Source: Methanosarcinales archaeon Met12 (GTDB lineage Archaea; Halobacteriota; UBA148; JAJOKI01). Taken from it: a stretch of 32,000 bases of DNA. The position numbers and the translations under genes were made by a program. The notes under the pieces were generated by a model that had not been told where the DNA came from, ran no database searches, and saw nothing but the letters and a program-made list of their open reading frames with translations. Numbering within the stretch: position 1 is the stretch's first letter; every line of letters begins with the position of its first letter. The stretch is taken from assembly GCA_002813105.2 (NCBI GenBank), contig CP017966.2, positions 728,312-760,311 on the forward strand, in the 5' to 3' direction. Below, in pieces: positions 2,742 to 19,355 of the stretch.

Positions 2742-3803
2742 CTATGGAATCTCAACAGCCTCCGAAACTCCTGCCTCTGCGAACGTAGTCATCTCTTTCA
2801 ATATCTTTGTGCTCGCCTCCACAATGCTTATTCCAAATGCGGCACCCGTCCCCTCCCCTAACCGCATGCGTAGATTGAGAAGGGGGCATAGACTCATTCT
2901 CTCCAACATGACTTTGTGACCGTTTTCTACTGAACAATGAGAGGCAATTATATACTGGTTGGCTAAAGGAGCGAGCTCTGTGGCGATGAGAGCACCAGCA
3001 GTAGAAATAAATCCGTCTATCACCACCGGTATCCTATGGGCTGCTGCACCCAAGACCACGCCAGCCAACCCACCAATCTCAAAACCCCCAACTTTTGCCA
3101 GGACATCTAATGGGTCATTTTTGTCTGGAGAGTTAATTTCAAGCGCCTTTTTAATTGCCCTTATCTTAGCCTCAAGTGCAGTGTCGTCAATTCCTGTGCC
3201 CCTGCCTGTAACTCTTTCAACTTTTTCCCCTGTGATGGCAGCCACGATTGCACTGGACGGAGTCGTGTTTCCAATGCCCATGTCCCCTGTTCCCACGATG
3301 TCCAGACCTCTTTTCAGTTCATCTTCAAAGACCTCTATCCCGGCTTCAATCGACCTCACCGCTTGTTCGCTACTCATAGCCGGACCCTTAGTCATGTTTT
3401 TCGTTCCATAATCTACTTTTTTATTCACTATATTTTGATGCTCCACCTCAGCAGCCACACCCATATCGACAACTACAACTCGAGCACCAACATGCCGGCC
3501 TAAAACGTTTATACCTGCTCCGCCCCTAATGAAATTATAAACCATCTGAGGAGTTACTTCCTGGGGAAACAGACTCACCCCCTCTTCTACAACTCCATGA
3601 TCGCCTGCCATCGTTATGATAACTTTATCGCGTATTTCTGGCATGGGATTTCCCGTAATGCCTGCCACTTTGATCGATAGGTCCTCCAGTATTCCCAGAC
3701 TTTCCTTGGGTTTGGTCAATATATCCTGCCTTTCCTTAGCAAGCTTCATTGCATTTTTATCCAGCAGTTCTATTTGAGCAATTATCTCTCTGATTTTCTG
3801 CAT
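2742..3803 (-). CDS. cobT: nicotinate-nucleotide--dimethylbenzimidazole phosphoribosyltransferase
   Basis: 353 aa. MAGDHGVVEEGVSLFPQEVTPQMVYNFIRGGAGINVL and GDMGIGNTTPSSA are typical CobT blocks. The gene sits in a corrinoid gene neighbourhood. Confidence 0.9.
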   Translation of the reverse strand: MQKIREIIAQIELLDKNAMKLAKERQDILTKPKESLGILEDLSIKVAGITGNPMPEIRDKVIITMAGDHGVVEEGVSLFPQEVTPQMVYNFIRGGAGINVLGRHVGARVVVVDMGVAAEVEHQNIVNKKVDYGTKNMTKGPAMSSEQAVRSIEAGIEVFEDELKRGLDIVGTGDMGIGNTTPSSAIVAAITGEKVERVTGRGTGIDDTALEAKIRAIKKALEINSPDKNDPLDVLAKVGGFEIGGLAGVVLGAAAHRIPVVIDGFISTAGALIATELAPLANQYIIASHCSVENGHKVMLERMSLCPLLNLRMRLGEGTGAAFGISIVEASTKILKEMTTFAEAGVSEAVEIP

Positions 3804-3804
3804 T

Positions 3805-4410
3805 CTACCTACGCTCCAACACAGTATATGCTGCGGCCCATGTTGCTCGCTCTGCCTCTTTTTCCGTCTCGCCAGTTCCGATGATCAGCACATCGCCTTT
3901 TTCCATTTTCATGTCCTCGCAGAGCACTCTCGTTCTTGCCTGCATGCGTCCATCTGCTGTGAACATGGGGATTCTTGGATCATCTTCGTCAAGTAGGATG
4001 GTAGTTGCGCCCATGGTGCCTGCTGATATCGCCGCATCTCTCTGCTCCATCCCAGATTTTATGAGCTTAGCAGCGTCTCTGATGAGAATGGCAGAATTCG
4101 CTTTTCCAATCGTTATGGTACCGGCTGCTATATGTGGCTTGTAAGAGACCTTCTTTTTGATATCCATCAGCATTTTATCTCCTCTTTTGGTCAACTGACA
4201 TCCTTTGGCAGATGCGCTCACCAGCCCCAGACCATACAGCTTCTCGATTAAGGTGCGCACCGTTCCCTCACCCAAGTCAAGCCGTTCCGCCAGCGCCCTT
4301 CTTCCTATCGGGCCATCACCGAGAATAAAGAATGCCATGATGACATGATATGCTGAATAGTTGGGCAATGGGCCCTTTTTTGGCTTATTTATGGCACCAA
4401 TCAACTCCAT
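3805..4410 (-). CDS. predicted winged-helix transcriptional regulator with uncharacterised C-terminal domain (DUF4443-like)
   Basis: 201 aa. The N-terminal GPIGRRALAERLDLGEGTVRTLIEKL is HTH-like. The gene is translationally coupled inside the transporter/cobT operon: it overlaps the ATPase gene by 10 nt and ends 1 nt before cobT. The family name is from memory. Confidence 0.55.
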   Translation of the reverse strand: MELIGAINKPKKGPLPNYSAYHVIMAFFILGDGPIGRRALAERLDLGEGTVRTLIEKLYGLGLVSASAKGCQLTKRGDKMLMDIKKKVSYKPHIAAGTITIGKANSAILIRDAAKLIKSGMEQRDAAISAGTMGATTILLDEDDPRIPMFTADGRMQARTRVLCEDMKMEKGDVLIIGTGETEKEAERATWAAAYTVLERR

Positions 4411-5666
4411 ATCTTTTCACCTTGTTTTTCAATAATCGATAACACCTCGCCCAGATTTCTAACGACTATCGCACCATTGTTTTTCAAGTCGATATAACAC
4501 TTCTCGGCATCCCCATCTGTGAAATCCCTCTGCTCGATTGGACCATCCTCGATGAGCACTAATGGTTTGCCCTTCGAGGCGATGCTTGCCGCCTCCATAT
4601 TTTTCAAGTTCCCATGTCCAAATGGTATGTTCGTTAATATCACTATATCGGCTTGGTCGATTAACTCAATATTGGCTTGGTGCGCTTCCTGCGTAATCGG
4701 GGAAAATGGGGCTTCGCTGATGGTGGGGATATTCAAATATCGAGCCGCTTCGTGGTCGGCATCAAGTACATTAATCACGCCGGCAGTGACCTGGTACCCA
4801 TGTTCAGTGAGGCAATGCATTAGTTGCGCTCCGCTCCCGCCTCCGCATATCAGGTGAATGGCCATTCTTTGTGATGCTGCTGCCGGTTTCTCGTCAGGCA
4901 GCGGAATGATGTAGAGCGAGTTCGTCACCGGATGCCGTTTCACCAGCACGCCGGTATGATATACTTTTTTGATGTTCTCGGCGGTCAGGACCGTCTCCGG
5001 CGGTCCAATGGAGACGACCTTTCCATGGTCAAGCAATGCAAGGATGTCGCAATACCGACTGGCAAGGTTGAGGTCATGAAAAACACTTATGGCAATTAGG
5101 CCTTCTGTTCGGGTCAATCGTTTTATTATATCCATTATCTCAATTTGATGATTGATATCAAGATGGGTGGTGGGCTCATCGAGCAATAGGATTCTCGGCT
5201 CCTGGGCAAGGGCTCTGGCGATTATGACTCGCTGCTTCTCTCCTCCACTTAACTCGGTGATGGGGCGCTCGGAAAGATACCATGTATTGGTCAGCTCCAT
5301 GGCTTTTCTGGCAATGGACATATCCCTTTCTCCTTCAAATTCAAATCTGCCCTGATGTGGTGTGCGTCCCATGAGCACTATCTCCAGTGCTGTAAAGGCA
5401 AAATTAATCACGTTATCCTGAGACACTACGGCAAGCCTTTTTGCTATCTCTTTGCTTGACAGAGCATAAATATCTGTGTGATTTAAAAGAACCGTTCCCA
5501 CTTTTGGCCTGAGGATTCTGCTGACACTTCTGAGCAAGGTCGATTTACCTGAGCCGTTTGGCCCTATCACGCCGATGAAATCGCCGCTGTCCGCTAAAAG
5601 GTCGATACTCTCCAGAACCTTAATGCTTCCATAGTAGCAATCGATATTGTCGATTTTTAATGGCAT
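4401..5666 (-). CDS. ABC transporter ATP-binding protein (FepC/BtuD type) fused to a ~160-aa uncharacterised C-terminal domain
   Basis: 421 aa with Walker A GPNGSGKST, signature LSGGEKQRV and Walker B LLLDEPTTHLD in the first ~255 aa. An extra alpha/beta-looking tail starts at MAIHLICGGGSGAQ. Confidence 0.9.
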   Translation of the reverse strand: MPLKIDNIDCYYGSIKVLESIDLLADSGDFIGVIGPNGSGKSTLLRSVSRILRPKVGTVLLNHTDIYALSSKEIAKRLAVVSQDNVINFAFTALEIVLMGRTPHQGRFEFEGERDMSIARKAMELTNTWYLSERPITELSGGEKQRVIIARALAQEPRILLLDEPTTHLDINHQIEIMDIIKRLTRTEGLIAISVFHDLNLASRYCDILALLDHGKVVSIGPPETVLTAENIKKVYHTGVLVKRHPVTNSLYIIPLPDEKPAAASQRMAIHLICGGGSGAQLMHCLTEHGYQVTAGVINVLDADHEAARYLNIPTISEAPFSPITQEAHQANIELIDQADIVILTNIPFGHGNLKNMEAASIASKGKPLVLIEDGPIEQRDFTDGDAEKCYIDLKNNGAIVVRNLGEVLSIIEKQGEKIWS

Positions 5667-5675
5667 GATTTCACC

Positions 5676-6761
5676 TTAGAACATCGTCCTCTTTCTGGTG
5701 CGCAGCAAGTAAACAAAGAAGGGGGCGCCAAAGAGTGCAGTTATTATTCCAACCGGCAGTTCTGCAGGCGCCATGATTGTGCGTGCTAACGTATCTGCCC
5801 ATGCTAAAAATATGGCGCCAACTAATGCAGATGCCGGAAGAAGAATGCGGTGGTCAGGACCTGTTAAGATTCTGACTATATGTGGGATGATTAAGCCAAC
5901 AAATCCAATAAGCCCGCTGAACGACACTGCTGCTGCAGTGATCAAAGAGGCAAAAATTAGCATGATTTTTTTGAAAGACTCCACACTTATGCCAAGATGC
6001 TGTGCAGGCTCTTCTCCCAGCAGCATCACATTCAAATCCTTTGCAAAAAAGTATACAATCACTATGCCTATGCAGATTAAAGGCGATATCAGTTTAACCT
6101 GCTCCCAATTGGCAGCCCAAAATCCACCCATCATCCAGAATATGATATGGTGTAGATCCTCACCGGCTAAAAATATCATAAATGATGTGATAGCAGATAA
6201 GAACGCACCCACAGCTATTCCAGAAAGCAATAACGTTTCTACCGGCACTTTTCCTCCAACCCTGGCGATATTGTAAACTACAAAGGCTGCGGTAGTGGCT
6301 CCAAGAAATGCCATAATTGGAATTGTATATCCGCCAAATATAACAATTCCGAGCACTATCGTCGCAGATACTGCTGCTGCTGCGCCAGAGGATATCCCGA
6401 TTATAAATGGGTCTGCCATCGGATTTTTAAACAACCCCTGCATCATCGTGCCTGCAGCTGCAAGTGCTGCACCCACAAGCACTGCCAGCAATATCCTTGG
6501 CAGACGAATATGAAGGATTATGCTCTCATGGGTGGGATTGACGAGAATCTGTGGGGGAGCAATCAGGCCGTTTATTAGAGGCATTTTGCCAAGTAGCAGA
6601 TATATTTCATTGAGGAGCGCATTAAGGAGTATATTAAAAACGTCTGGAAGCGGTATCTTTACAGGCCCTATGGAAACGATTATGATAATGGTCAACACTA
6701 AGGCCATCATTAAGGCGAAGATGATTGATTTCCACCTGAGAGTTTTTTTGATATAATCCAT
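5676..6761 (-). CDS. FecCD-family ABC permease (BtuC/FepD type)
   Basis: 361 aa, polytopic. RLPRILLAVLVGAALAAAGTMMQGLFKNPMADPFIIGISSGAA is the FecCD signature region. Confidence 0.9.
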   Translation of the reverse strand: MDYIKKTLRWKSIIFALMMALVLTIIIIVSIGPVKIPLPDVFNILLNALLNEIYLLLGKMPLINGLIAPPQILVNPTHESIILHIRLPRILLAVLVGAALAAAGTMMQGLFKNPMADPFIIGISSGAAAAVSATIVLGIVIFGGYTIPIMAFLGATTAAFVVYNIARVGGKVPVETLLLSGIAVGAFLSAITSFMIFLAGEDLHHIIFWMMGGFWAANWEQVKLISPLICIGIVIVYFFAKDLNVMLLGEEPAQHLGISVESFKKIMLIFASLITAAAVSFSGLIGFVGLIIPHIVRILTGPDHRILLPASALVGAIFLAWADTLARTIMAPAELPVGIITALFGAPFFVYLLRTRKRTMF

Positions 6762-6910
6762 TATATGACCTGTAGTGTAAACAAATAATTGATGATATCA
6801 TATATCTAATCATTCTCAACTGTTGCTATGTTTTTGTTTGAGCACTCTTTGTCTCCCTCCATTCTTCTTGCTAATCTTTTTTCAGTCCATGGTTACACAT
6901 ATACAAAGAT

Positions 6911-6927
6911 GGGGAGAGATTCTCCCC
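6911..6927 (-). terminator. intra-operon hairpin between the binding-protein and permease genes
   Basis: GGGGAGA-GAT-TCTCCCC is a perfect 7-bp stem. On the transcribed (minus) strand it is followed by ATCTTTG. It may act as an attenuator or RNA-stability element giving excess binding-protein mRNA. Confidence 0.3.
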
Positions 6928-6997
6928 CCTATTTGAGTTTTCCTGTTTTCACTCTCCCTTTCGTCTCAGTACAGTTCCAAATCAAAGATTTGAGAAG

Positions 6998-8596
6998 TCA
7001 GATCTTCGATCTGCGACACAGATATGCTACCGCAAGCAGTCCGAGGATTGCGAATATCGCTCCGAAGCCCGGAATCTCATACCATGGTTTAGGTTCGGGC
7101 TCTGGTGTTGGAGTTGGCACTGGTGTAGGCACTGGCGTGGGAGCAGGTGCAACACCACCAGCCAGCAGTCTCTTTACCGTGATTGTCTGCGTTACGCTAT
7201 TCCCGGTAAGATCGGTTGCCACGACCGTGAACGTGTTATATCCAATTGATAATGACACTCCCCTGCTATAAGAGCCATCTACTGCAGGGGTTATTGCCAC
7301 TCCATTTAGTGTAAGCGATTTAGGATCGGCATCCCTTACAGCCCCCGATATTACCGTTGATGTCGCAAATGTGGATGTTCCTGCTGAACTTGCGATAGTT
7401 GTGATTGGCGGTGTAGAACGGAATACGCTATAAAACTCCTCCAGCCCATATACAATTCTAGGCCCAGGCCGCTCGATGATATTTGGATCACCCATGGCAT
7501 GAATCCTGCCATCTCTATATGCAGTGGTCTGCTGGATGATCGTATTATTCATTAAATTGGCTTTGATGATTTCTGACCCCCCGCCCATTCCTGAAGTTAT
7601 TATGACCTCGGGGTCGCCTACGAGTATGTCCTCTAAGCTCATCATTGACCAGCCAGAGATGCCGGATGCGATGTTTACTCCCCCTGCTTGTTGAATTATG
7701 TCGTGGGGAAATGTTCCTGAACCTGCTACCCATATGCCTGGGTACCAAACCACGTGAAGGACGCGCAATCTTTGTGCCTCAGAGTAATGTGTTGTGTTAC
7801 TTGTTATGGTTTCGATTCTCTGCGTCATATTCGTGGTCAATGCGGTGGCGTTAGCCTTTTGTCTCGTTATGTCTCCGACCAGTTCTATGTGACCAAGTAT
7901 GTCAGAGATGTTTTTTGGGTGTAATGCCACCACGGTGAAATTATGCACTATTAACTTGTTAATCACATCTATGCGATTGCCATGAGCAGCCAGAATCAGA
8001 TCAGGCGTAAGATTGATGATTATTTCGGTAGAAGGTACGACGAAGCCACCAACCCTTGTTATGTTTCCTGCACTCACCCTTGCCCCCACCTCAAGGGGAT
8101 AATCACAGAAGTTTGTCACCCCGACAACCCTATTCCCAGCTCCAACCGCAAAAAGAATCTCAGTATTGCTTGGTGCAAGAGAGACTATCTTCAGCGGTTG
8201 TTGTGATATCCTCCAAGTTTTTCCGAGGTCATCCGTAATCACCAGTTCTACGGTGACGTTCCAGGTAACCATCGGTGTTGTTCCGTTTGCGTTGGTGCCA
8301 GAAACATTGACGTTATACATTCCATACGATAGAAATGTGTAATTAAAAGTGCTTGCGTTATTATCCTGATCAACGCTGTTCACTGTCCAATTCCACGTCG
8401 TGATCGTCTCGTTGGCAGTGGCGTTGAACATAACCGTTGTCCCTGTGGAAACTGTTATATTCGTTGAATTATCATTCGTAAAATCGTTACCCCATGATGT
8501 TATCACAGGACTTGCACTTACCAAACCGACACTACATATGAGCAATATACCCGCAATGAGAAGTATCGCAATCTTTCGAGCCATTTTTATAGACAT
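6998..8596 (-). CDS. surface-anchored periplasmic-binding-protein type 2 (BtuF/FepB-like) substrate-binding protein with PKD-like N-domain, Ig-like C-domain, Pro/Thr linker and PGF-CTERM anchor
   Basis: 532 aa with signal peptide MARKIAILLIAGILLICSVGLVSA. KIVSLAPSNTEILFAVGAGNRVVGVTNFCDYP is the BtuF-type core. The C-terminus reads APAPTPVPTPVPTPTPEPEPKPWYEIPGFGAIFAILGLLAVAYLCRRSKI. AAGGAG lies 8 nt upstream of the ATG. Confidence 0.85.
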   Translation of the reverse strand: MSIKMARKIAILLIAGILLICSVGLVSASPVITSWGNDFTNDNSTNITVSTGTTVMFNATANETITTWNWTVNSVDQDNNASTFNYTFLSYGMYNVNVSGTNANGTTPMVTWNVTVELVITDDLGKTWRISQQPLKIVSLAPSNTEILFAVGAGNRVVGVTNFCDYPLEVGARVSAGNITRVGGFVVPSTEIIINLTPDLILAAHGNRIDVINKLIVHNFTVVALHPKNISDILGHIELVGDITRQKANATALTTNMTQRIETITSNTTHYSEAQRLRVLHVVWYPGIWVAGSGTFPHDIIQQAGGVNIASGISGWSMMSLEDILVGDPEVIITSGMGGGSEIIKANLMNNTIIQQTTAYRDGRIHAMGDPNIIERPGPRIVYGLEEFYSVFRSTPPITTIASSAGTSTFATSTVISGAVRDADPKSLTLNGVAITPAVDGSYSRGVSLSIGYNTFTVVATDLTGNSVTQTITVKRLLAGGVAPAPTPVPTPVPTPTPEPEPKPWYEIPGFGAIFAILGLLAVAYLCRRSKI

Positions 8597-8691: not shown

Positions 8692-9582
8692 ATGCTTAAT
8701 ACTACAGCGATGCCGGCGATAGCGATTCATGGAACTACCTCTAATGCAGGAAAAACGATTATAGCGACCGCTCTCTGCAGAATATTTGCTGACAAGGGAT
8801 ACAGCGCGACCCCTTTCAAGGCGCAAAACATGTCGTTGAACTCGTACGTCACCAAAGATGGAGGGGAGATTGCCAGGGCGCAGGCATTGCAGGCGCATGC
8901 TGCCAGGATTGAGCCCACTGTCGACATAAACCCGATATTGTTGAAGCCAAAGGCAGAGCATGTTTCGCAGGTGGTCGTGCATGGCAGACCTTACGCTGAC
9001 ATGAATGTTGGTGAGTATCATGATTTTATCGAAAGACAGGGGCGCCAGATAGTCAAAACCTCTCTTGAATATCTGTTATCGGAGTATGATTTAGTCATCA
9101 TGGAAGGGGCGGGTAGTCCTGCGGAAATTAATATCATGCATCGGGATATCGTGAACATATATCCTGCTCGATTGGCTGAGGCAAAATGCATACTTGTTCA
9201 TAACATTGAGCACGGAGGATCATTCGCTTATCTGTTCGGCACGCTGGGACTCTTGGAAGATGAAAAAGAGCGATATGAAGGAGTCATAATCAATAAATTT
9301 CATGGCGAATCACTTGATACAAGTGATATTGAGAGAGTTATCGGCAAACCGGTTCTGGGCGTAGTTCCATATATCGAAGATTTAAATCTGCCAGAGGAAG
9401 ACTCACTGGGACTGAAAAATCATGATGGCCATTTTGACGCCCCACCTGTACGAAAAGCAATATTACAAGCCATGAAAAGACCCTCTAAAACAATTGAGCG
9501 AGATTTAGATGATGAGATAGATAGGCTGGCAAACATCGTTTCTGCGAGCGTGGATATTGAAAGGACAGAGGCAGCATTATGA
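8692..9582 (+). CDS. cobyric acid synthase (CobQ/CbiP) homologue lacking the glutamine amidotransferase domain
   Basis: 296 aa. AIHGTTSNAGKTIIATALCRIFADKGYSATPFKAQNMSLNSYVTKDGGEIARAQALQAHAARIEPTVDINPILLKP is the CobQ ATPase/substrate domain. After GVVPYIEDLNLPEEDSLGL the ~200-aa GATase domain is absent, and only a CobQ-like C-terminal tail follows. The true start may be Met7 (8710), because a TATA box lies at 8674-8680. Confidence 0.8.
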   Translation: MLNTTAMPAIAIHGTTSNAGKTIIATALCRIFADKGYSATPFKAQNMSLNSYVTKDGGEIARAQALQAHAARIEPTVDINPILLKPKAEHVSQVVVHGRPYADMNVGEYHDFIERQGRQIVKTSLEYLLSEYDLVIMEGAGSPAEINIMHRDIVNIYPARLAEAKCILVHNIEHGGSFAYLFGTLGLLEDEKERYEGVIINKFHGESLDTSDIERVIGKPVLGVVPYIEDLNLPEEDSLGLKNHDGHFDAPPVRKAILQAMKRPSKTIERDLDDEIDRLANIVSASVDIERTEAAL

Positions 9583-10022
9583 ATAATATCCTGTTCTTGG
9601 GGGCGAGTAAGGGATGCGGCAAAACTACAATAGTCAATGCACTTTACAGACTGTTCGGTCACAAAATCGACAAATCGCAGTTAAGATGCGAATGTGACGG
9701 CACCATCATAGAAGGGATTGGAGTTGCAGATGCGGATGCATCGCTCATCCTGATTGGAGATATCGAAAAAGGCGGCGTATTCGCCGGACTGTATGGAACA
9801 TACATATTGCTAAAAGGATTGCATATATCCGGATTTTTGATTAACAAGTTCAGGGGAGATCGTACAATTCTGGAGCCTGGGCTGAAATTCCTTGAGGATG
9901 AGACCGGGGTCCCTGTTCTCGGCGTCATTCCCTATATCAAAAATCCAGACGAATTTGTCAGAGCATTAAAAGAAAACGTTGATTTGGATGCAATATCGAG
10001 AATGCTGGGTGTAAGAATATGA
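9579..10022 (+). CDS. minimal CobQ-like P-loop protein (second truncated CobQ paralogue)
   Basis: 147 aa with an ATGA start/stop overlap with the upstream gene. It has P-loop GASKGCGKTT, and GDIEKGGVFAGLYGTYILL...GFLINKFRGDRTILEPGLKFLEDETGVPVLGVIPY matches the CobQ N-domain. Both the substrate-binding middle section and the GATase domain are missing. Confidence 0.6.
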   Translation: MNNILFLGASKGCGKTTIVNALYRLFGHKIDKSQLRCECDGTIIEGIGVADADASLILIGDIEKGGVFAGLYGTYILLKGLHISGFLINKFRGDRTILEPGLKFLEDETGVPVLGVIPYIKNPDEFVRALKENVDLDAISRMLGVRI

Positions 10023-11350
10023 GGGAACGCATCAGAGAAGAAGCGCTGAATCTAAAACGATGTGTACATGGGGGAAATAGTACAGACGACATAATCGATT
10101 TCAGTGCCAGCATCAACCCACTTGCGCCGCCAGATGCAACGGACATCGTGTTGGCTGCATATAAACGGATTGGGCATTATCCAGATGACCGATATACCGC
10201 ATTCAGGGAGGCTGCCGCGAACTTCGTTGGCGTAAGCGCAAATAATATAATCCCCGGAAACGGCTCCACGGAAATAATCAGGCTGTTTGCCGAAACCGTC
10301 ATCGAACGCGGCGACTGGGTGACCATCCCCTGCCCAACCTTTGGGGAATACGAATTTCAATCCAGATTATTTGGAGCAAGACCGCGATTCATTGAATATG
10401 AGAAGGTCAAAAATGGACAAATAAGTGATAGTGTATTAAAGGGTTCCAAGGCCCTTTGTATATGCAACCCAAACAACCCGACCGGCGACCTGCTTCCAAG
10501 GGATGTATTAACAGACCTGGCAACGAGGTGCTCAAAAAATAAGATATTTCTCTTCGTGGATGAGGCGTTCATCGAGCTATCCGACCCAGAGCAGAGCATC
10601 GCCGATGTCGCTGCGGAAAATGATTTCGTCTTCGTGCTTCGGTCGCTGACAAAGTGCTTTGCAGTGCCTGGAATCAGGATAGGATATGGCATCGGCTCAG
10701 TTAGATTGGTGGAATTGCTTGATAGGGCACGATTGCAATGGAATCTCAATATATTTGCCGATGTAATTGGCGTCCATCTTCTCAAAAATCCTGAATATCT
10801 GGAACGATCGCGTGAATTGATAAAAACCGAGCGAGAGTGGTTGATAAATCGATTGAGCAGTATAATAGGCATACGTCCCTTGCAGAGCAAGGCTAATTTC
10901 ATCTTGCTCGATATAAGTGGCACTGACCTCACATCACGTGAAATTACGCAGCGCATGCTCGAACATGGGATACAGGTCAGGGATTGTAGTTCGTTTAGGT
11001 CCCTTGGTGAAACCCATGTCAGGGTTGCCGTTAAAACAAGGGCTGAAAATGAGGGGCTCGCCACTGCCTTCAATCATGCCTTGGAACATGACCATCTTGG
11101 CTGTGAATATTATCCGTGCCATTTCGAGGGGCAGGACTGTACTTTCTGCTTCTGCCCGTTCTATTCATGCGAGGATGAGCGCCCTGGAAAATTTACGAAG
11201 AAATCATCTGGCGGTGTTGCATGGAGTTGTATTAACTGCAATATTATACACCAGCCAGATGTGGCGCAAGAGGTGCTGGACAGACTTCTCGCTGGTGATG
11301 AATTGAGCAAAGTCTGGAAAATCATAGAGAGGCGATTATGCACTGGATAA
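10019..11350 (+). CDS. cobD: L-threonine-O-3-phosphate decarboxylase (CobD, class I/II aminotransferase fold) with Cys-rich C-terminal domain
   Basis: 443 aa. HGGN...IDFSASINPLAPP, NPNNPTG and SLTKCFAVPGIRIGY (PLP Lys) are CobD/HisC-like. The last ~88 aa (from 11084) carry 8-9 Cys: GCEYYPCHFEGQDCTFCFCPFYSCED...WSCINCN. Confidence 0.85.
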   Translation: MRERIREEALNLKRCVHGGNSTDDIIDFSASINPLAPPDATDIVLAAYKRIGHYPDDRYTAFREAAANFVGVSANNIIPGNGSTEIIRLFAETVIERGDWVTIPCPTFGEYEFQSRLFGARPRFIEYEKVKNGQISDSVLKGSKALCICNPNNPTGDLLPRDVLTDLATRCSKNKIFLFVDEAFIELSDPEQSIADVAAENDFVFVLRSLTKCFAVPGIRIGYGIGSVRLVELLDRARLQWNLNIFADVIGVHLLKNPEYLERSRELIKTEREWLINRLSSIIGIRPLQSKANFILLDISGTDLTSREITQRMLEHGIQVRDCSSFRSLGETHVRVAVKTRAENEGLATAFNHALEHDHLGCEYYPCHFEGQDCTFCFCPFYSCEDERPGKFTKKSSGGVAWSCINCNIIHQPDVAQEVLDRLLAGDELSKVWKIIERRLCTG

Positions 11351-12300
11351 TTCTTGGTCTTGCGGCCATTATGGACTTGCTGTTCGGCGAACCCAATAAA
11401 ACGTTCCATCCGGTAGTCTGGATCGGTAAACTGATAGATGCCATACAAAGTCATCTCAAGAAAATGTTCGCTTACGCTCATATTTACTTGAGCCATACAA
11501 AGTTTCACTTTATATGCCAGGATAAATCAAAAATATCCGGTTGCATATTGGTGTTGATAGTCGTTGGCAGCGCTCTATTGGGAGGATATCTGGTCACCCT
11601 CGTGCATGGCTTCATCGGTTTGCTCGTATCCGCATACGTTCTAAAATCGACATTTTCCATTACATGCCTGACGGATACTGCGACGAAGATATGTGAACAT
11701 CTTGAGAAAGATGACCTCGTCAGTGCCAAAAAGGAGTTGCCTGCGCTGGTTGGGAGAGACCCTGAGGGACTTACAAGAGAGGAGATGTGTTCTGCTGTCA
11801 TAGAATCGACCGCAGAGAACTTCGTAGACGGAATACTGTCTCCAATATTTTACTTCGTGCTCTTTGGGTTACCGGGGGCATTGGGGTACAAGGCAATAAA
11901 CACCCTGGATTCCATGATTGGATACAGGAATCAGGGCGATTTTGGATGGGCTTCCGCAAGACTGGATGATGTAGCAAACTACATACCGGCAAGATTGTCA
12001 GTGCTTTTTATCACTATGGCGTCAGCTGTCCATGGTTCGCCCCTTTCCGCTCTGAGAACATCAAGACGGGACCATGGTCAAACCGCGAGTCCAAATTCTG
12101 GATGGCCAATGGCTGCGATGGCTGGAGCATTGAAGATATCCCTGAAAAAGCCGCTGTACCATACCATAGGGAGCGAGTTTGCATTACCCGAGCCACAACA
12201 AATAAGAGATGCAATTCAAATAACGAGGATATCGTCTATGATGCTCATCGTGTTATCCCTTCTCATCCTCTATTACGCAAAACTACCGCTGGTGATGTAA
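11338..12300 (+). CDS. cbiB: adenosylcobinamide-phosphate synthase
   Basis: 320 aa membrane protein. LLFGEPNKTFHPVVWIGKLI, DSMIGYRN and PNSGWPMAAMAGAL are CbiB/CobD-family blocks. Confidence 0.9.
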   Translation: MHWIILGLAAIMDLLFGEPNKTFHPVVWIGKLIDAIQSHLKKMFAYAHIYLSHTKFHFICQDKSKISGCILVLIVVGSALLGGYLVTLVHGFIGLLVSAYVLKSTFSITCLTDTATKICEHLEKDDLVSAKKELPALVGRDPEGLTREEMCSAVIESTAENFVDGILSPIFYFVLFGLPGALGYKAINTLDSMIGYRNQGDFGWASARLDDVANYIPARLSVLFITMASAVHGSPLSALRTSRRDHGQTASPNSGWPMAAMAGALKISLKKPLYHTIGSEFALPEPQQIRDAIQITRISSMMLIVLSLLILYYAKLPLVM

Positions 12301-13374
12301 ATGATGTTGAAGATTCCGATAGATGGGATTCGTGTGAGGGTAGAAGAGAAAACACTTGTGATAGAATCGGAGAGGCTTCTTTATATTCTAAGCTCTGCGG
12401 CATTAAATGGCGGTTTCAGCAGGGCGACGACGATAATAAACCACCAAGTTGGAAAAAACTTCAGTCTGGAACCCAGGGCAAAACTGGCACAAGTTATTAG
12501 AGGACTAAAATTACCAGAGTCTACAATAGGGCTGATGACTGCTACCAACGTGGATGATCCCGGAATAATTTTTGAAGAGGAGAGGGGTCTGGCTGTCTGT
12601 GCCATGGTTACTGCTGGCCTATCCAGTAATACGGTCAACACGATTCTATTGATAGACAGCGACCTGACGCCGTCGTGTATGGTAAACGCCGTAATCACCG
12701 CTACAGAAGGCAAATGTCTTGCCCTGCAGCTTTTAGGTGTGGAGGCAACTGGAACGTGCACGGACACGGTGACAATCGCCTTCACGGGCAAAGGCGAGAG
12801 AATAGAATATGCCGGAACTGCTACAACGCTTGGCAAGATGATTTACAATACTGTTAGGGAAGCTACGCTGCAGGCGCTCCAAAAACAAGAACAAATTACC
12901 GTAGACAGGCCCATCATGCAGAGGCTGGAAGAACTGGGAATAACACTTTCCAAGATTGTAGAGACTGCTCTGACATTCTTTGTCCCGCACCCAGGAATAG
13001 AGTCAGGTAGGGAGGCGAGGCAAATATTTGTAGATGAATTAAACAATGCGCTGGCAGACCCTAACGTGAGCGCTTTGATTTATGCAGGAATTACTCTCGA
13101 AAGAGATGCAAAAAGGGGCATGATTCCTGACCTCAAAGGATATGAAAATGACCTTGCAGCCCTCATTGCCGATGAAGTGTTGGGGATGAGCATTGCAAAT
13201 TACATAGGCGGATATAAGGGGCTGTTTGAGTATATCAGGTTTGATAAAGCAAAGCCGGGCATACTTACAGAGTTGGGTCCGTTTATGGACGATGTGATTG
13301 CTGGATTGATAGGCGGCGTCTCGGCGAAGATGTATGATGCGGGGATGAGGGCCAAGGAGGATAAAGATGAATGA
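12301..13374 (+). CDS. cbiZ: adenosylcobinamide amidohydrolase CbiZ fused to a PgpA-like (CobZ-type alpha-ribazole-phosphate phosphatase) domain
   Basis: 357 aa. The N-terminal ~200 aa (LSSAALNGGF...MTATNV...VNTILLID...TATEGK) are CbiZ-like. The C-terminal ~155 aa (from ~12901) carry LIADEVLGMSIANYIGG and FMDDVIAGLIGG, typical of the PgpA/CobZ family. Confidence 0.75.
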   Translation: MMLKIPIDGIRVRVEEKTLVIESERLLYILSSAALNGGFSRATTIINHQVGKNFSLEPRAKLAQVIRGLKLPESTIGLMTATNVDDPGIIFEEERGLAVCAMVTAGLSSNTVNTILLIDSDLTPSCMVNAVITATEGKCLALQLLGVEATGTCTDTVTIAFTGKGERIEYAGTATTLGKMIYNTVREATLQALQKQEQITVDRPIMQRLEELGITLSKIVETALTFFVPHPGIESGREARQIFVDELNNALADPNVSALIYAGITLERDAKRGMIPDLKGYENDLAALIADEVLGMSIANYIGGYKGLFEYIRFDKAKPGILTELGPFMDDVIAGLIGGVSAKMYDAGMRAKEDKDE

Positions 13375-14113
13375 CCTTCTTCATGCTATCAAAGCAGGCA
13401 TGGGTTTTCTAACGACTATTCCGGTTGGAATCGATATGGACGGTCTGCAGAAGCTTGGCAAACGCACATACCTGCTCCCCTTCATAGGCGCCCTCATTGG
13501 CCTGATAATCGGCAGCATAGGGCTTGCGCTTCAACACCTGCCGCCGTACCTATCCTTGGCATTACTCATCCTTGCCCTGTACTGCATTACGGGATTAAAC
13601 CATATGGATGGGCTGATGGATTTTGGAGATGCCATTACTGCGCACGGCACCCCGGAAGAAAGAATTAGGATTATGCATGATACGACCACCGGGGTTGGCG
13701 GCACTGTTTTTTGCGTAATGTCGTTGCTGATTCTGTTTTCAGCCATAGCTGCAATAGAGCAGAACCTGTTATTCGCTATCCTGATAGCAGAAATTAGCGC
13801 CAAACAATCCATGCTCACGGCAGCGATGTTCGGAAAGAGCATACACAAGGGACTGGGGTCGATATTCATCGACAATGTCAGACATCGTGATTTCTTGATT
13901 GGGCTGGTTTTTTCTTGTGCTATATGCTGGCTTGCGTTTGATGTGTTTGGCATTATCGCTCTATTATCTGCGCTATTGTCTGCGCTCGTGATAGTGCATA
14001 TCGCCAGCCGCAACTTCGGAGGAGTAAATGGCGACGTTCTCGGAGCAACCAATGAAGTGGGGCGCATAGCAGGACTGATTGCAATCGGAGTGATGACATG
14101 GATGCCCTTGTAA
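13367..14113 (+). CDS. cobS: adenosylcobinamide-GDP ribazoletransferase (cobalamin synthase)
   Basis: 248 aa polytopic membrane protein. FLTTIPVG, the HMDGLMDFGDA motif and GGVNGDVLGA are CobS signatures. Confidence 0.9.
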   Translation: MNDLLHAIKAGMGFLTTIPVGIDMDGLQKLGKRTYLLPFIGALIGLIIGSIGLALQHLPPYLSLALLILALYCITGLNHMDGLMDFGDAITAHGTPEERIRIMHDTTTGVGGTVFCVMSLLILFSAIAAIEQNLLFAILIAEISAKQSMLTAAMFGKSIHKGLGSIFIDNVRHRDFLIGLVFSCAICWLAFDVFGIIALLSALLSALVIVHIASRNFGGVNGDVLGATNEVGRIAGLIAIGVMTWMPL

Positions 14114-14727
14114 TGGCTGGCGGACCTGGAAATAGGCTGGGTGAAGGAGAAAAACCACTGATAAGTCTGTGCGGAAATCCAATGATATCGTACGTCTTGG
14201 ATGCGCTTCGGCAAAGCGATAAAGTCGATGAAATTTTTGTCGTAACCTCGCCGTATACGCCGGAAACAAGAAGGTGCCTGAAAGATAAGTTTCGTGTGAT
14301 TGAAGCAGGTGGCGTCGGATATGTATCTGACTTAGTGGAGGCGACCGAGTCCCTTGAATTAAAATCTCCATTCCTCATCGTAATGGCTGACCTGCCCCTT
14401 CTGAGCGCCAAGCTAATCGATGAAGTTATCGAGATATACTCAAAGATAACCAAGCCAGCGCTCTCCGTCTACGTCCCTCTTAGGGTTTGTAGAGAGGTCG
14501 GTGTACGCCCAGACATCGTGTTAAATAACAATGGTGAATTGACCGTGCCAGTAGGTGTGAACATCCTGGATGGGCGCCTGATAAGAGAGGAACAGGACGA
14601 ACATCGGCTTGTGCTTGCACAAAGGGAGCTGGCGGTCAATGTGAACACGGTCAATGATCTGGTGGTTTGCGAGAGAATTTTGAGTGCCAAAAAAGGTAAG
14701 AGAAGCCTTGGAGATAGCCAGCTTTGA
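14098..14727 (+). CDS. cobY: adenosylcobinamide-phosphate guanylyltransferase, archaeal type
   Basis: 209 aa. MDALVMAGGPGNRLG...EKPL is an NTP-transferase N-terminus. The gene overlaps the cobS stop and is last in the corrinoid operon, as expected for archaeal CobY. Confidence 0.8.
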   Translation: MDALVMAGGPGNRLGEGEKPLISLCGNPMISYVLDALRQSDKVDEIFVVTSPYTPETRRCLKDKFRVIEAGGVGYVSDLVEATESLELKSPFLIVMADLPLLSAKLIDEVIEIYSKITKPALSVYVPLRVCREVGVRPDIVLNNNGELTVPVGVNILDGRLIREEQDEHRLVLAQRELAVNVNTVNDLVVCERILSAKKGKRSLGDSQL

Positions 14728-14828
14728 CGAGGATATCCCTAAAGTTAACACTACAAATGATTAATCGTTAAGTATATAACTTAGCTGAATATATAACAAT
14801 AAATTCTGTTCTATGTGGGGCTTGATAC

Positions 14829-16037
14829 ATGAAGCAGATTACATCCATTGCAAAAATACCTGAAAAAGTGACGATCCCGTTGCAGCAACATGTTGGTGTG
14901 GAAAACAGATCTCTGGTAATTGTTGGCGACGTGGTGAAAGTTGGTCAAAAGATTGGCGAAAGCGAATCGGGCATTTCACCGGTCCACTCCAGCGTCTCTG
15001 GGAAGGTTATTGAAATTTCCAAGCATCCTCACCCTTTTTATGAAAACACCCCGACTATAATTATCGAGCCGAATGGGAAGGACTCCTCTATTGAATTCAA
15101 AGCAAAGGATTATTCTCGGCAGGGAAGGGAACAGATTATAGAAATCATAAAAGAGGCAGGAATCGTTGAGTCTGGCATCCCTGTTCACACCAAGTTGAAC
15201 CTGTCAGATGTGGTCATCTTGAACGGCATGGATGAACCCCCATACGTGGCGATGAACCATGCACTCATGCTGGATTTTCCTGACGAAATAATAGAAGGAT
15301 TAAAAATATTGATGAAAGCTACTGGAGCATCGCGTGGTCTTATCGGAATTGACATTAGGGATTCTGATGTAATCAATCGCATGAACAGGGCAGTGGTTGA
15401 CGACTCAAACATAGGAACGGTTTCGTTAAAAACCACGTATGTGCAGGGCATGGAGGGGCTTTTTGCCAAAGCCGTCGTCAGAAAGGAACTGTCGCATGGA
15501 CAGCAGATATCCAACGCCAGCACGATGACCGTTACCGTTGGAACTGCGAAGGTGGTGTATGATGCGGTGTGCACAGGCAAGCCCATGATCGAGACGGTCA
15601 TTACCGTTTTGGGGACAAAAAAATCACAAAACGTATTGGTGAAGATTGGAACTCCAGTGAGAGATGTAATCAGGCATTGTGGGGGCTATAGTGGTGAGCC
15701 AAAAAAGATCATCATCAACGGGCCGATGACAGGAATGGCCCAGTATACGGATGAGGTGCCAATCGTCAAGGGGACATATGGGGTATTCGTCCAGTATGAA
15801 GGGGACGTTTCAACAGTAGAGCCAGGACCATGCATCAATTGCGCCAAATGTATCGACGTATGCCCGGTGAATTTACTGCCGAACATGCTGGTAGCGTTTG
15901 CGGGTGATGCCAGGTTTGATATGTGCGAGAATTACAATATATCTGCCTGTGTGGAATGCGGCAAGTGTGCATATGTATGCCCGTCCAAGATACCAATAGT
16001 GCAACTGATAAAATACGCAAAGGGGTGGATTAAGTGA
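14829..16037 (+). CDS. rnfC: Rnf complex subunit C (divergent)
   Basis: 402 aa. It has the N-terminal RnfC barrel (IPLQQHVG...VHSSVSGKV) and two ferredoxin motifs, CINCAKCIDVCP and CVECGKCAYVCP. It is first in the gene order rnfCDGEAB. Confidence 0.85.
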   Translation: MKQITSIAKIPEKVTIPLQQHVGVENRSLVIVGDVVKVGQKIGESESGISPVHSSVSGKVIEISKHPHPFYENTPTIIIEPNGKDSSIEFKAKDYSRQGREQIIEIIKEAGIVESGIPVHTKLNLSDVVILNGMDEPPYVAMNHALMLDFPDEIIEGLKILMKATGASRGLIGIDIRDSDVINRMNRAVVDDSNIGTVSLKTTYVQGMEGLFAKAVVRKELSHGQQISNASTMTVTVGTAKVVYDAVCTGKPMIETVITVLGTKKSQNVLVKIGTPVRDVIRHCGGYSGEPKKIIINGPMTGMAQYTDEVPIVKGTYGVFVQYEGDVSTVEPGPCINCAKCIDVCPVNLLPNMLVAFAGDARFDMCENYNISACVECGKCAYVCPSKIPIVQLIKYAKGWIK

Positions 16038-17367: not shown

Positions 17368-17368
17368 C

Positions 17369-17971: not shown

Positions 17972-17977
17972 TTAAAA

Positions 17978-19350: not shown

Positions 19351-19355
19351 TAGCT

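What the first reader, a model, noticed from the sequence alone, without database searches (positions are those of the whole stretch)
8692..10022. Tandem pair of CobQ paralogues that both lack the glutamine amidotransferase domain, heading a corrinoid salvage operon
Seen: ORF 1 (296 aa) has a complete CobQ ATPase/substrate N-domain up to GVVPYIEDLNLPEEDSLGL. It then jumps to a CobQ-like C-terminal tail (DDEIDRLANIVSASVDIE), and the ~200-aa class I GATase domain is missing in frame. ORF 2 (147 aa, ATGA-coupled) keeps only the P-loop (GASKGCGKTT) and the distal half of the N-domain (GDIEKGGVFA...INKFRGD...GVPVLGVIPY) plus a similar tail. Established: CobQ/CbiP amidates four corrin side chains using ammonia produced by its fused glutaminase domain. 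The CbiZ-CbiB salvage route encoded downstream starts from adenosylcobyric acid and does not obviously need CobQ. Inference: the pair may be (i) an ammonia-dependent or heteromeric amidating enzyme that repairs de-amidated salvaged corrinoids, (ii) a repurposed SIMIBI-type ATPase pair acting in corrinoid handling or delivery, or (iii) decaying remnants. Conserved motifs and translational coupling argue against simple decay.
Basis: partly seen in the sequence, partly recalled or inferred. Interest (0 to 1): 0.6.

Follow-up and report, generated by a model that had tools for sequence, protein, structure and literature searches.

The report
Glutaminase-less CobQ with mini-CobQ partner
A vitamin-B12-scavenging archaeon keeps only the ATP-using half of the enzyme that normally finishes the B12 ring, next to a tiny paralogue that retains exactly the motifs the first one has lost; the same glutaminase-less enzyme recurs unnoticed in bacteria, so it is probably a working ammonia-dependent variant and not a wreck.

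Summary
ORF1 (8692-9582, 296 aa) is a CobQ/CbiP synthetase domain plus the family's C-terminal helix, with the class-I glutaminase excised in frame. ORF2 (9579-10022, 147 aa, ATGA-coupled) is a mini-CobQ. The closed 1.07-Mb genome has no other CobQ, no CobQ-type glutaminase, and no CbiA or CbiC.

It is not decay. The pair is conserved across the archaeal order, with dN/dS 0.17-0.22 for truncated N-domains against 0.15-0.24 for full-length orthologues. One genus keeps a 475-aa CobQ. The others carry four different deletion junctions.

ORF1 keeps every family invariant in its first 170 residues. It has lost the DIxRGGxFA and INKFRGD motifs, and ORF2 keeps exactly those. This complementary degeneration suggests a heterodimer with one composite active site, as in dethiobiotin synthetase.

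The same glutaminase-less architecture occurs in bacterial salvage operons, including a complete Bacillus genome without CbiA or CbiC. It is also the only CobQ in one complete anaerobic de novo B12 cluster.

Best reading (about 0.45): an ammonia-dependent corrinoid amidoligase that finishes or repairs imported corrinoids. It is a new variant of a known kind. An earlier scan note (e1-924108) saw the same pair in another genome.

The parts
8692..9582 (+). cobQ-dGAT (ORF1, 296 aa): CobQ synthetase domain plus C-terminal helix, with the glutaminase domain deleted in frame
   Evidence: The NF001989 match covers profile 2-240/480 at 325 bits, and no GATase_3 is found. The alignment with 475-aa orthologues shows the excision. 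The AF2 model has pLDDT 87.9. The closest solved fold is dethiobiotin synthetase.
8731..8757 (+). ORF1 P-loop GTTSNAGKT (res 14-22)
   Evidence: G14, T15, S17, G20 and K21 are invariant in 94 full-length CobQ and are kept here.
8812..9132 (+). ORF1 catalytic and substrate lobe: PFKAQNMSLNS (41-51), NPILLKP (80-86), EGAGSPAEIN (138-147)
   Evidence: All family-invariant residues of this part are retained in both truncated and full-length orthologues. dN/dS here is 0.10-0.17.
9199..9309 (+). ORF1 degenerate 'second-half' motifs: HNIEHGGSFA (170-179, canonical DIDRGGVFA) and INKFHGE (200-206, canonical INKFRGD)
   Evidence: The changes D185N, R188H/Y and R219H, and the loss of invariant L225 and G228, are seen in every CobQ1 of the order. 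This stretch is also a recombination tract: 91-94% nt identity to genus g3 against 68-77% to the same-genus G001.
9430..9447 (+). Deletion junction HFDA|PP (res 247-252)
   Evidence: In the full-length orthologues a TTTGAY (FD) codon pair flanks the glutaminase on both sides (HFD|VGV... and ...GIFD|NPP). Deletion between these repeats gives the junction seen here.
9508..9579 (+). ORF1 C-terminal helix DDEIDRLANIVSASVDIERTEAAL (273-296), the retained tail of full-length CobQ
   Evidence: It aligns with the C-terminus of the full-length orthologues. It is a confident helix (pLDDT 96-98) packed on the core. The bacterial glutaminase-less forms keep the same tail.
9579..10022 (+). ORF2 (147 aa): mini-CobQ paralogue with P-loop, Walker-B EG, canonical GDIEKGGVFA and INKFRGD, GVPVLGVIPY and tail helix; the substrate lobe is absent
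   Evidence: It matches CobQ profile 153-227 only. It is conserved downstream of cobQ in all 11 loci examined, with a 4- or 8-nt overlap in 10 of them and a frameshift in G001. dN/dS is 0.17-0.37. The family is confined to this lineage. The AF2 model has pLDDT 69 and is good for res 55-140.
9756..9860 (+). ORF2 canonical motifs GDIEKGGVFA (60-69) and INKFRGD (88-94)
   Evidence: ORF2 keeps every family invariant of alignment columns 173-245, which are the ones ORF1 has lost.
10019..11350 (+). cobD (L-threonine-phosphate decarboxylase) with C-terminal Cys-rich zf-like domain
   Evidence: TIGR01140 at 288 bits; PF00155 plus PF04071.
11338..12300 (+). cbiB (adenosylcobinamide-phosphate synthase)
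   Evidence: PF03186 at 297 bits; TIGR00380 at 259 bits.
12301..13374 (+). cbiS (CbiZ amidohydrolase fused to CobZ alpha-ribazole phosphatase)
   Evidence: NF038002 at 222 bits; PF01955 plus TIGR03161.
13367..14727 (+). cobS and cobY (13367-14113 and 14098-14727)
   Evidence: TIGR00317; TIGR00454 and NF045495.
2742..8596 (-). Divergent operon: btuF (PGF-CTERM anchored), btuC, btuD (with an extra C-terminal domain), DUF4443 regulator-like gene, cobT
   Evidence: Pfam matches. The gene order is conserved in relatives.

Best explanation
ORF1 is a functional cobyric-acid-synthase-type amidoligase that has lost its own glutaminase. It most likely uses free ammonia to amidate corrinoid side-chain carboxylates through an ATP-dependent acyl-phosphate. 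In this lineage it works as a heterodimer with ORF2.

The proposed division of labour is:
- ORF1 supplies the P-loop, the catalytic lysine and the corrinoid-binding lobe.
- ORF2 is a stripped paralogue. It supplies in trans the DIxRGGxFA and INKFRGD loops that ORF1 has degenerated. This would give one composite active site at the subunit interface, as in homodimeric dethiobiotin synthetase.

The organism cannot make corrinoids. It lacks CbiA and CbiC but has BtuFCD, CbiS, CbiB, CobD, CobY, CobS and CobT, and a corrinoid-dependent acetyl-CoA decarbonylase/synthase. The enzyme's job would then be to complete or repair imported, incompletely amidated or de-amidated corrinoids to cobyric acid before CbiB acts.

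Shown:
- the architecture, its conservation and purifying selection;
- the complementary motif loss;
- recurrence of the glutaminase-less form in bacteria.

Inferred:
- ammonia as the nitrogen donor;
- the heterodimer;
- the substrate.
For: - Architecture and absence of any second CobQ or CobQ-type glutaminase.
- Salvage-only status: none of the 14 genomes of the order has CbiA/CobB/CfbB or CbiC. The own genome lacks McrA but has CdhD/E and one B12-binding protein.
- Conservation: the cobQ-ORF2 pair is present in all 11 loci examined across 4 genera.
- Selection: N-domain dN/dS is 0.17-0.22 between truncated orthologues and 0.15-0.235 between full-length ones. ORF2 is at 0.17-0.37.
- Catalytic residues: ORF1 keeps all invariants of the first ~170 residues, judged against 94 full-length CobQ. 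It has lost D185, R188, R219, L225 and G228. ORF2 keeps precisely those and lacks the first-half motifs.
- Bacterial glutaminase-less CobQs have no ORF2 partner and keep the canonical loops.
- The ORF2 family is confined to this lineage. Scores drop from 306-205 bits to 153, and from 311 to 148 in the exhaustive search.
- The glutaminase was removed with at least four different junctions, while one genus keeps it.
- The same N-domain-plus-tail architecture occurs in at least 42 of 99 short CobQ clusters sampled, with at least 7 state changes on the N-domain tree.
- It sits in salvage operons. One is in a complete Bacillus genome where it is the only CobQ and CbiA and CbiC are absent.
- It is the only CobQ in a full anaerobic de novo cluster, cbiMQO to cbiJ. 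This argues that it still performs the amidations.
- The fold is dethiobiotin-synthetase-like. DTBS binds its substrate in the cavity between two subunits of a homodimer (PMC8659263).
- Corrinoid-auxotrophic Dehalococcoides are reported to retain cbiP (PMC11321594).
Against: - No biochemical data exist for any glutaminase-less CobQ.
- The canonical archaeal CbiZ-CbiB route does not need CobQ. From my own recollection of Woodson et al. 2003 (J Bacteriol 185:7193; not held in the library), a Halobacterium cbiP mutant still salvaged cobinamide.
- Whether incompletely amidated corrinoids are available to this organism is unknown.
- The heterodimer rests on motif complementarity and on analogy with DTBS. 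No complex prediction could be run, and the mapping of the DIxRGG loop onto the trans substrate loop of DTBS comes from memory.
- In the same genus, ORF2 is frameshifted in G001 and has small in-frame deletions in G000. Its P-loop half therefore seems less constrained.
- The de novo example rests on one 64-kb contig. A second, full-length cobQ elsewhere in that genome cannot be excluded.
Confidence: 0.45

Rival explanations
1. ORF1, with ORF2, is the ATP-dependent carboxylate-activating partner of the membrane protein CbiB. It would phosphorylate the f-propionate of cobyric acid so that aminopropanol phosphate, not ammonia, attacks. The glutaminase would then be useless in salvagers.
For: - Glutaminase-less cobQ is adjacent to, or within two genes of, cbiB and cobD in every context seen.
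- It persists in organisms whose only corrinoid route runs through CbiB.
- Its catalytic residues are intact.
- From my own knowledge: CbiB has no recognised nucleotide-binding domain, although its reaction consumes ATP.
Against: - Full-length cobQ is also usually next to cbiB, so adjacency does not discriminate.
- From my recollection of Woodson 2003, a Halobacterium cbiP mutant still converted cobinamide through CbiZ and CbiB.
- The glutaminase-less form is the only CobQ in a de novo cluster, where four ammonia-type amidations are still needed.
Confidence: 0.13
2. The enzyme is still glutamine-dependent but receives ammonia from a separately encoded glutaminase subunit (a split enzyme, as in MurT/GatD or PdxS/PdxT).
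For: Split cobQ genes, with an N-domain ORF followed by a GATase_3 ORF, exist in some bacteria. CobQ-type glutaminases can work as separate subunits, as GatD does.
Against: The own closed genome has no free GATase_3 protein other than PdxT, which is encoded beside PdxS. The other weak hits are unrelated. Nothing of the kind lies in the operon in any of the 11 archaeal loci or in the bacterial salvage operons.
Confidence: 0.08
3. The pair no longer catalyses amidation. It is a corrinoid-binding or ATP-gated chaperone or hand-over factor between importer, CbiS and CbiB, or a slowly decaying remnant.
For: - The pathway as understood does not need CobQ.
- In one same-genus MAG (G002) cobQ is broken and cbiB and cbiS are also damaged.
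- ORF2 is frameshifted in G001.
- ORF1 has lost several family invariants.
Against: - dN/dS equals that of full-length orthologues.
- The P-loop, the catalytic lobe and Walker B are all intact.
- The motifs lost in ORF1 are preserved in ORF2.
- The architecture has arisen repeatedly and is maintained in bacteria, including within a de novo cluster.
- G002 looks like decay of the whole operon, which says nothing specific about CobQ.
Confidence: 0.14
4. Assembly or sequencing artefact: the real gene is full length.
For: None. Reads could not be inspected.
Against: - The reading frame is intact.
- The contig is a closed genome.
- Near-identical truncated proteins come from other sources (P0001 at 98% and P0002 at 90% identity).
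- Related truncated alleles occur in 5 other genomes, including a second complete chromosome.
Confidence: 0.01

Closest known systems
CobQ/CbiP cobyric acid synthase (Salmonella CbiP, Pseudomonas denitrificans CobQ; TIGR00313, NF001989)
   Same: The N-terminal ATP-dependent synthetase domain has all invariants of its first 170 residues, and the C-terminal helix is present. The gene lies beside cbiB and cobD. Orthology to the 475-aa CobQ of the sister genus is clear (75% identity over the N-domain).
   Different: The class-I glutaminase (Cys-His) domain is absent. Several second-half invariants are lost. The protein is obligatorily accompanied by a mini-paralogue. The host has no de novo corrin pathway.
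Glutaminase-less CobQ of bacterial B12 operons (Bacillaceae, Tissierellales/Clostridia; databases call them 'cobyric acid synthase'; my literature searches found no description of them)
   Same: The architecture is identical: N-domain through the EDS linker, a short spacer, then the C-terminal helix. The location is beside cbiB, cobD, btuFCD and cbiZ. Some lie next to a BtuD that carries the same extra C-terminal domain as here.
   Different: The bacterial forms keep the canonical DI[DE]RGGVFA and INKFRGD motifs and have no ORF2-like partner. Some have altered the QNMxLNS motif. One sits in a complete de novo cluster.
Dethiobiotin synthetase (BioD)
   Same: It is the closest solved fold (Foldseek E 3e-9, TM 0.68 on the target). 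The chemistry is the same: ATP-dependent activation followed by C-N bond formation. It is a homodimer with the substrate site between subunits, which is the model for the proposed ORF1:ORF2 composite site.
   Different: The substrate is different and small. There is no corrinoid lobe and no C-terminal helix. It is a homodimer of two complete subunits.
Ammonia-dependent versus glutamine-dependent NAD+ synthetase (NadE)
   Same: It is a precedent for one amidoligase family that exists with and without a fused glutaminase, where the short form uses free ammonia.
   Different: The fold is unrelated (PP-loop) and the glutaminase is of another type (nitrilase-like). This is an analogy only.
CbiA/CobB and CfbB a,c-diamide synthases
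   Same: They share the two-domain layout (DTBS-like synthetase plus GATase_3) and are weakly hit by the ORF1 P-loop region.
   Different: They form a different subfamily. ORF1 scores only 28 bits against a cut-off of 254. No member is present in any genome of the order.

Membership tests
CobQ/CbiP cobyric acid synthase | N-terminal DTBS-like synthetase domain with P-loop and the family's invariant substrate and catalytic motifs | tested here: met
   ORF1 matches NF001989 positions 2-240 at 325 bits (cut-off 273). All invariants of the first ~170 residues are kept.
CobQ/CbiP cobyric acid synthase | C-terminal class-I glutamine amidotransferase domain (GATase_3, Cys-His) | tested here: not met
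   ORF1 has no PF07685 match. The alignment shows in-frame excision of the region that carries the conserved GICGG Cys and the HG His.
CobQ/CbiP cobyric acid synthase | Invariant second-half motifs DIxRGGxFA and INKFRGD in the same polypeptide | tested here: not met
   ORF1 has HNIEHGGSFA and INKFHGE. D185, R188, R219, L225 and G228 are lost. ORF2 supplies them.
CobQ/CbiP cobyric acid synthase | Orthology to bona fide full-length CobQ | tested here: met
   ORF1 is 71-76% identical over the N-domain and 65-69% over the tail to the 474-477-aa CobQ at the syntenic position in genus g2.
CobQ/CbiP cobyric acid synthase | ATP- and glutamine-dependent amidation of the b, d, e, g carboxylates of adenosylcobyrinic acid a,c-diamide | not testable with these tools
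   This needs enzymology. The function is as described in PMC7242693.
CobQ/CbiP (for ORF2) | Full-length match above the curated cut-off | tested here: not met
   ORF2 scores 95.9 bits against 273, and only over profile 153-227. It lacks the whole substrate lobe.
DTBS-like ATP-dependent amidoligase fold (Galperin & Grishin class) | P-loop alpha/beta fold whose closest solved relative is dethiobiotin synthetase | tested here: met
   AF2 model with pLDDT 87.9. The Foldseek top hits are 1dbs and 1dts at E 3e-9.
DTBS-like amidoligase | Dimer with the active site completed by the partner subunit | not testable with these tools
   No multimer prediction was available. Only motif complementarity and the DTBS precedent bear on it.
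ParA/MinD-type 'CobQ' (Aeromonas AhCobQ lysine deacetylase) | AAA_31 ParA-like ATPase plus a C-terminal deacetylase region | tested here: not met
   Pfam finds CbiA and AAA_26 with true CobQ equivalog matches in ORF1, and no AAA_31. The paper describes AhCobQ as a Soj/ParA homologue. No sequence comparison with AhCobQ itself was run.

The most novel reading that the evidence does not exclude
The glutaminase-less CobQ, here as an ORF1:ORF2 heterodimer with a single composite active site, is the missing ATP-using catalytic partner of CbiB. It would activate the f-carboxylate of cobyric acid for attack by aminopropanol phosphate. This would explain why the glutaminase is repeatedly discarded in organisms that only salvage. 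It would also give a mechanism for the least understood step of late B12 assembly.
Probability: 0.12. Interest if true: 0.85.

Novelty: new variant of a known kind. Interest (0 to 1): 0.55.

Why it matters
CobQ/CbiP is treated in textbooks as a fused glutamine amidotransferase that belongs to de novo B12 synthesis.

Three points here change that picture:
- A glutaminase-less form is common and maintained by selection in both Bacteria and Archaea. Databases label it 'cobyric acid synthase', and my literature searches found no description of it.
- Corrinoid auxotrophs keep it. This implies an unrecognised need for side-chain amidation, or for ATP-dependent carboxylate activation, during salvage. 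It bears on which corrinoid precursors microbes actually exchange.
- In one archaeal order the enzyme has split its essential motifs between two paralogues. This is a clean natural case of complementary degeneration into a presumptive asymmetric heterodimer.

Pathway predictors that score 'cobQ present' would misjudge these genomes. The variant also offers a minimal, ammonia-driven amidoligase for biochemical and structural work on a family that has no solved synthetase-domain structure.

Tried and rejected
1. A free glutaminase partner elsewhere in the genome. The only real GATase_3 hit is PdxT beside PdxS.
2. A second, full-length cobQ in the genome. None was found.
3. A solved CobQ synthetase structure to map the motifs. 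None exists in the PDB by sequence or profile. Only GatD (glutaminase part) and weak DTBS hits came back.
4. A gene tree to count independent glutaminase losses within the order. It is unresolved (support 0.24 for the truncated group) and is confounded by a recombination tract. I therefore rely on the junctions and on G002, which still carries the glutaminase. I do not claim more than 'several alleles; at least two to three events likely; nested trimming plus lateral exchange not excluded'.
5. Identity of the lineage as Hikarchaeia/Marine Group IV. This was rejected. Those are now placed within Halobacteriales, whereas this order stands alone in its class. It has Rnf, a multihaem cytochrome and CdhDE, and its members are labelled 'Methanocellales archaeon', UBA148 and Met33H.
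6. The Aeromonas 'CobQ' deacetylase as a functional lead. It is a ParA/Soj-like protein and has no sign of CobQ orthology.
7. A strict link between loss of the glutaminase and presence of CbiZ. There is none. G009 and G004 are truncated and lack CbiZ.
8. The 134-aa ORF upstream of the glutaminase-less cobQ in the de novo cluster as a possible partner. It matches no family.
9. Read support for the junction.
10. Woodson et al. 2003 could not be read. Its result is cited from memory only.
Full report
**1. What is in the window**

ORF1 (8692-9582, 296 aa) and ORF2 (9579-10022, 147 aa) are real. They are co-directional, and ATGA overlaps join them to each other and to cobD.

ORF1 matches the curated cobyric acid synthase model NF001989 only over positions 2-240 of 480, at 325 bits against a cut-off of 273. 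It has no GATase_3 domain. ORF2 matches only positions 153-227 of that model.

Downstream lie cobD (with a Cys-rich zf-like tail), cbiB, a CbiZ-CobZ fusion (CbiS), cobS and cobY. On the other strand, divergently transcribed, lie:
- a PGF-CTERM-anchored btuF;
- btuC;
- a 421-aa btuD;
- a DUF4443 regulator-like gene;
- cobT.

**2. The organism**

The genome is a single 1,067,436-bp contig rated 97% complete. It has no second CobQ and no CobQ-type glutaminase; the only real GATase_3 hit is PdxT beside PdxS.

Pathway content:
- None of the 14 genomes of its order has CbiA/CobB/CfbB or CbiC.
- The two TP_methylase genes of the own genome are a probable uroporphyrinogen methyltransferase and Dph5.
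- There is no McrA. There is a CdhD/E corrinoid protein, one B12-binding protein, an Rnf cluster and a multihaem cytochrome.

It is therefore an anaerobic, non-methanogenic corrinoid auxotroph with a complete import and late-assembly set. Public relatives are labelled 'Methanocellales archaeon', 'Methanocellaceae archaeon UBA148' and 'Methanosarcinales archaeon Met33H'.

**3. Not an artefact and not decay**

Orthologous loci were recovered from 11 genomes of the order.
- Genus g2 (5 genomes aligned) has a 474-477-aa CobQ. It is 71-76% identical to ORF1 over the N-domain and 65-69% over the last 50 residues, and it has an intact glutaminase (GICGG Cys, HG His).
- Genera g1 (G000, G001), g3 (G004, G006, G008) and g4 (G009) have 269-309-aa proteins that lack the glutaminase core.

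An ORF2 homologue (166-178 aa) follows cobQ in every locus, including those with full-length CobQ. It overlaps the cobQ stop by 4 or 8 nt in 10 of the 11 loci; in G001 it is frameshifted. ORF2 therefore predates the domain loss.

Nei-Gojobori dN/dS values:

| Region | Pairs compared | dN/dS |
|---|---|---|
| CobQ N-domain | truncated vs truncated | 0.17-0.22 |
| CobQ N-domain | full-length vs full-length | 0.15-0.235 |
| ORF2 | all pairs | 0.17-0.37 |

Reads could not be examined.

**4. How the domain was lost**

Four junction types exist:
- G001 keeps 13 residues of the glutaminase C-terminus (GRIFGTCVHG-FDS).
- G000 reads HFDA|PPVRK.
- g3 reads DVDDV|ADRISARVVI..., with G008 trimmed further.
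- G009 reads ESID|ESDDEID.

In the full-length genes the same TTTGAY (Phe-Asp) codons flank the glutaminase on both sides. Deletion between these short repeats gives the G000 junction.

A third species of the own genus (G002) still carries most of the glutaminase, with a genus-typical tail. Its gene is broken by a different deletion, and its cbiB and cbiS are damaged too.

The gene tree cannot resolve the number of events (support 0.24). ORF1 is also mosaic. Codons 166-225 are 91-94% identical in DNA to genus g3 but only 68-77% identical to the same-genus G001, whereas codons 106-165 show the opposite pattern.

I conclude that there are several deletion alleles and most likely two to three or more primary events. 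Nested trimming and lateral exchange cannot be excluded.

**5. Complementary degeneration**

I compared the order's proteins with 94 full-length CobQ sequences.

ORF1 and all its orthologues, truncated or not:
- They keep every residue that is at least 90% conserved in the first ~170 positions. These include the P-loop G-T-x-S-x-x-G-K, PFK-QNM-LNS, E..Q..QA, NP-LLKP, Y109, EGAGSPAEIN, D152 and N155.
- They have lost invariants of the next block: D185N, R188H/Y, R219H, L225 and G228. In g2 they have also lost G190S, F192 and A193.

ORF2 does the reverse:
- It lacks the whole substrate lobe.
- It keeps the P-loop, the Walker-B E-G and every invariant of columns 173-245 (DIExGGVFA, GT, LL, INKFRGD, L, G, E, GVxP), plus a tail helix.

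Bacterial glutaminase-less CobQs have no such partner and keep the canonical loops themselves.

The ORF2 family is essentially confined to this lineage:
- In the word-indexed search, scores run 306-205 bits and then drop to 153.
- In the exhaustive search of 1.84 billion representatives, scores drop from 311 to 148 bits.
- One unrelated 199-aa look-alike exists (P0295).

The AF2 model of ORF1 has pLDDT 87.9. It shows a P-loop alpha/beta core, a disordered linker at residues 239-265, and confident C-terminal helices packed on the core. This explains why every independent deletion spares the tail. The nearest solved fold is dethiobiotin synthetase, a homodimer whose substrate lies in the cavity between the subunits (PMC8659263).

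By analogy I infer an ORF1:ORF2 heterodimer with one composite active site. The assignment of the DIxRGG loop to the trans-acting substrate loop of DTBS is from my own memory and was not tested. The ORF2 model is only moderate (pLDDT 69) and is good for residues 55-140.

**6. The architecture is widespread**

Among 99 short CobQ-like clusters returned with the ORF2 profile, at least 42 have the layout N-domain, 45-65-residue spacer, tail helix. On an N-domain tree that also includes full-length proteins, they require at least 7 state changes.

Contexts examined:

| Source | Context |
|---|---|
| Bacillus CP135435 and a related contig | btuF-btuC-btuD::cbiZ-cbiB-cobD-cobU-cobQdGAT-cobS-cobC...pduO |
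| Tissierellales | cobQdGAT-cbiB-cobD-btuF-btuC-cobU-cobS |
| Two further clusters | salvage-type |
| Two cases | split genes: N-domain ORF followed by a GATase_3 ORF |
| One 64-kb contig | complete anaerobic de novo cluster, cbiMQO-x-cobQdGAT-cbiB-...-cbiK-cbiA-cbiC-D-E-T-F-G-H-J, with the glutaminase-less gene as the only cobQ in the cluster |

In the complete Bacillus genome the glutaminase-less gene is the only CobQ, and CbiA and CbiC are absent.

A review states that all corrinoid-auxotrophic Dehalococcoides mccartyi retain cbiP (PMC11321594). None of the literature searches aimed at this found a description of a glutaminase-less CobQ.

**7. Interpretation**

Three facts point to a working amidoligase that takes ammonia directly:
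- The catalytic half is retained.
- Selection is as strong as on full-length orthologues.
- The form appears as the sole cluster-encoded CobQ of a de novo pathway.

NAD+ synthetase offers an analogy, since it exists with and without a fused glutaminase.

Its persistence in organisms that cannot make the corrin ring implies that imported corrinoids often need side-chain amidation. These could be incompletely amidated cobyrinic acids released by producers, or de-amidated cobamides.

The rivals are set out in the Rival explanations section. In brief:
- A CbiB partner is attractive and would be important. It is contradicted by the de novo context and, from memory, by Halobacterium genetics.
- A trans glutaminase has no candidate gene.
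- A non-catalytic role is disfavoured by conservation of the catalytic residues.

Loss of the glutaminase does not track CbiZ. All seven f2 genomes and G004 lack CbiZ and carry CobZ alone. In its place they carry other accessory genes (section 8).

**8. Other observations**

- The extra C-terminal ~160 residues of BtuD are shared end to end (42% identity) with a bacterial BtuD encoded immediately upstream of a glutaminase-less cobQ. That domain is precomputed as PF27219 (MJ0874).
- Genomes without CbiZ carry other genes in the btu operon:
  - G004 has a radical SAM protein and a DUF71/Dph6-like protein, which is the 'DUF71-B12' group of PMC3541065.
  - Family f2 has an orphan CbiE-like methylase.
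  - Genus g2 has a nitrilase-type hydrolase.
- The own genome has no PduO- or CobA-type adenosyltransferase.

**9. Verdict**

Decay and artefact are rejected. The function is inferred, not shown.

The finding is a new variant of a known enzyme, with a lineage-specific partner that is new as far as the databases and searches used here show. Another note (e1-3572663) recorded a truncated CobQ in a salvage region elsewhere.

Noticed in passing
window 4401-5666 (-), especially 4401-4885: BtuD is 421 aa, with an extra ~160-aa C-terminal domain. The whole protein is 42% identical to a 421-aa bacterial BtuD encoded directly upstream of a glutaminase-less cobQ (L121). Precomputed Pfam calls that domain PF27219 (MJ0874). 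In Bacillaceae the same position of BtuD is fused to CbiZ, which suggests a corrinoid-processing role.
   Followed up: partly
window 9190-9370 (ORF1 codons ~166-225): This is a recombination tract. The stretch is 91-94% identical in DNA to genus g3 (G006) but only 68-77% identical to the same-genus G001. Codons 106-165 show the reverse pattern. cobQ alleles are therefore exchanged between families of the order.
   Followed up: partly
L118 (G004) 4075-6412; L110 (G006) 16085-16735; L111 (G009) 10621-12004; L109 (G003) 12291-14935: CbiZ is patchy in the order. It is absent from all 7 f2 genomes and from G004. The btu operons there carry instead a radical SAM protein plus a DUF71/Dph6-like protein (G004), an orphan CbiE-like methylase (f2), or a nitrilase-type CN hydrolase (g2). 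A second DUF71 copy is present in most genomes of the order but not in the own genome.
   Followed up: partly
whole genome G000: No PduO-type or CobA-type corrinoid adenosyltransferase was detected in the closed genome, although CbiZ, CbiB and CobQ are described as acting on adenosylated corrinoids.
   Followed up: no
L027 (G002:C51): In a same-genus MAG the whole salvage operon looks eroded. cobQ is split by a deletion and frameshift, cbiB is truncated to 259 aa, and a 506-aa ORF joins a CbiZ part to CobS. This may be a lineage losing corrinoid salvage, or it may be MAG error.
   Followed up: partly
window 10019-11350 (+), residues 358-423: CobD carries a C-terminal Cys-rich 'zf-like' domain (PF04071, 86 bits). 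The domain is conserved in the orthologues of the order.
   Followed up: no
window 1815-2639 (-) and 14829-20303 (+): A multihaem cytochrome c and an Rnf cluster (rnfC, D, G ... B, apbE) flank the corrinoid locus. The genome has CdhD/E but no McrA and no CfbB. The 'Methanocellales' label on its relatives hides a non-methanogenic, small-genome lineage.
   Followed up: partly
P0295 (protein from the representative library): A 199-aa protein from an unrelated source has the same layout as ORF2: P-loop, Walker B, canonical DSDRGGVFA and INKFQGD, and tail helix, with the substrate lobe and glutaminase deleted. The mini-CobQ layout has therefore arisen at least twice. Its context is unknown.
   Followed up: no
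window 3805-4410 (-): A DUF4443/PH0730-like putative DNA-binding protein sits between btuD and cobT. It is conserved at that position in at least four genomes of the order (G003, G004, G006 and G009), which makes it a candidate corrinoid-responsive regulator.
   Followed up: no
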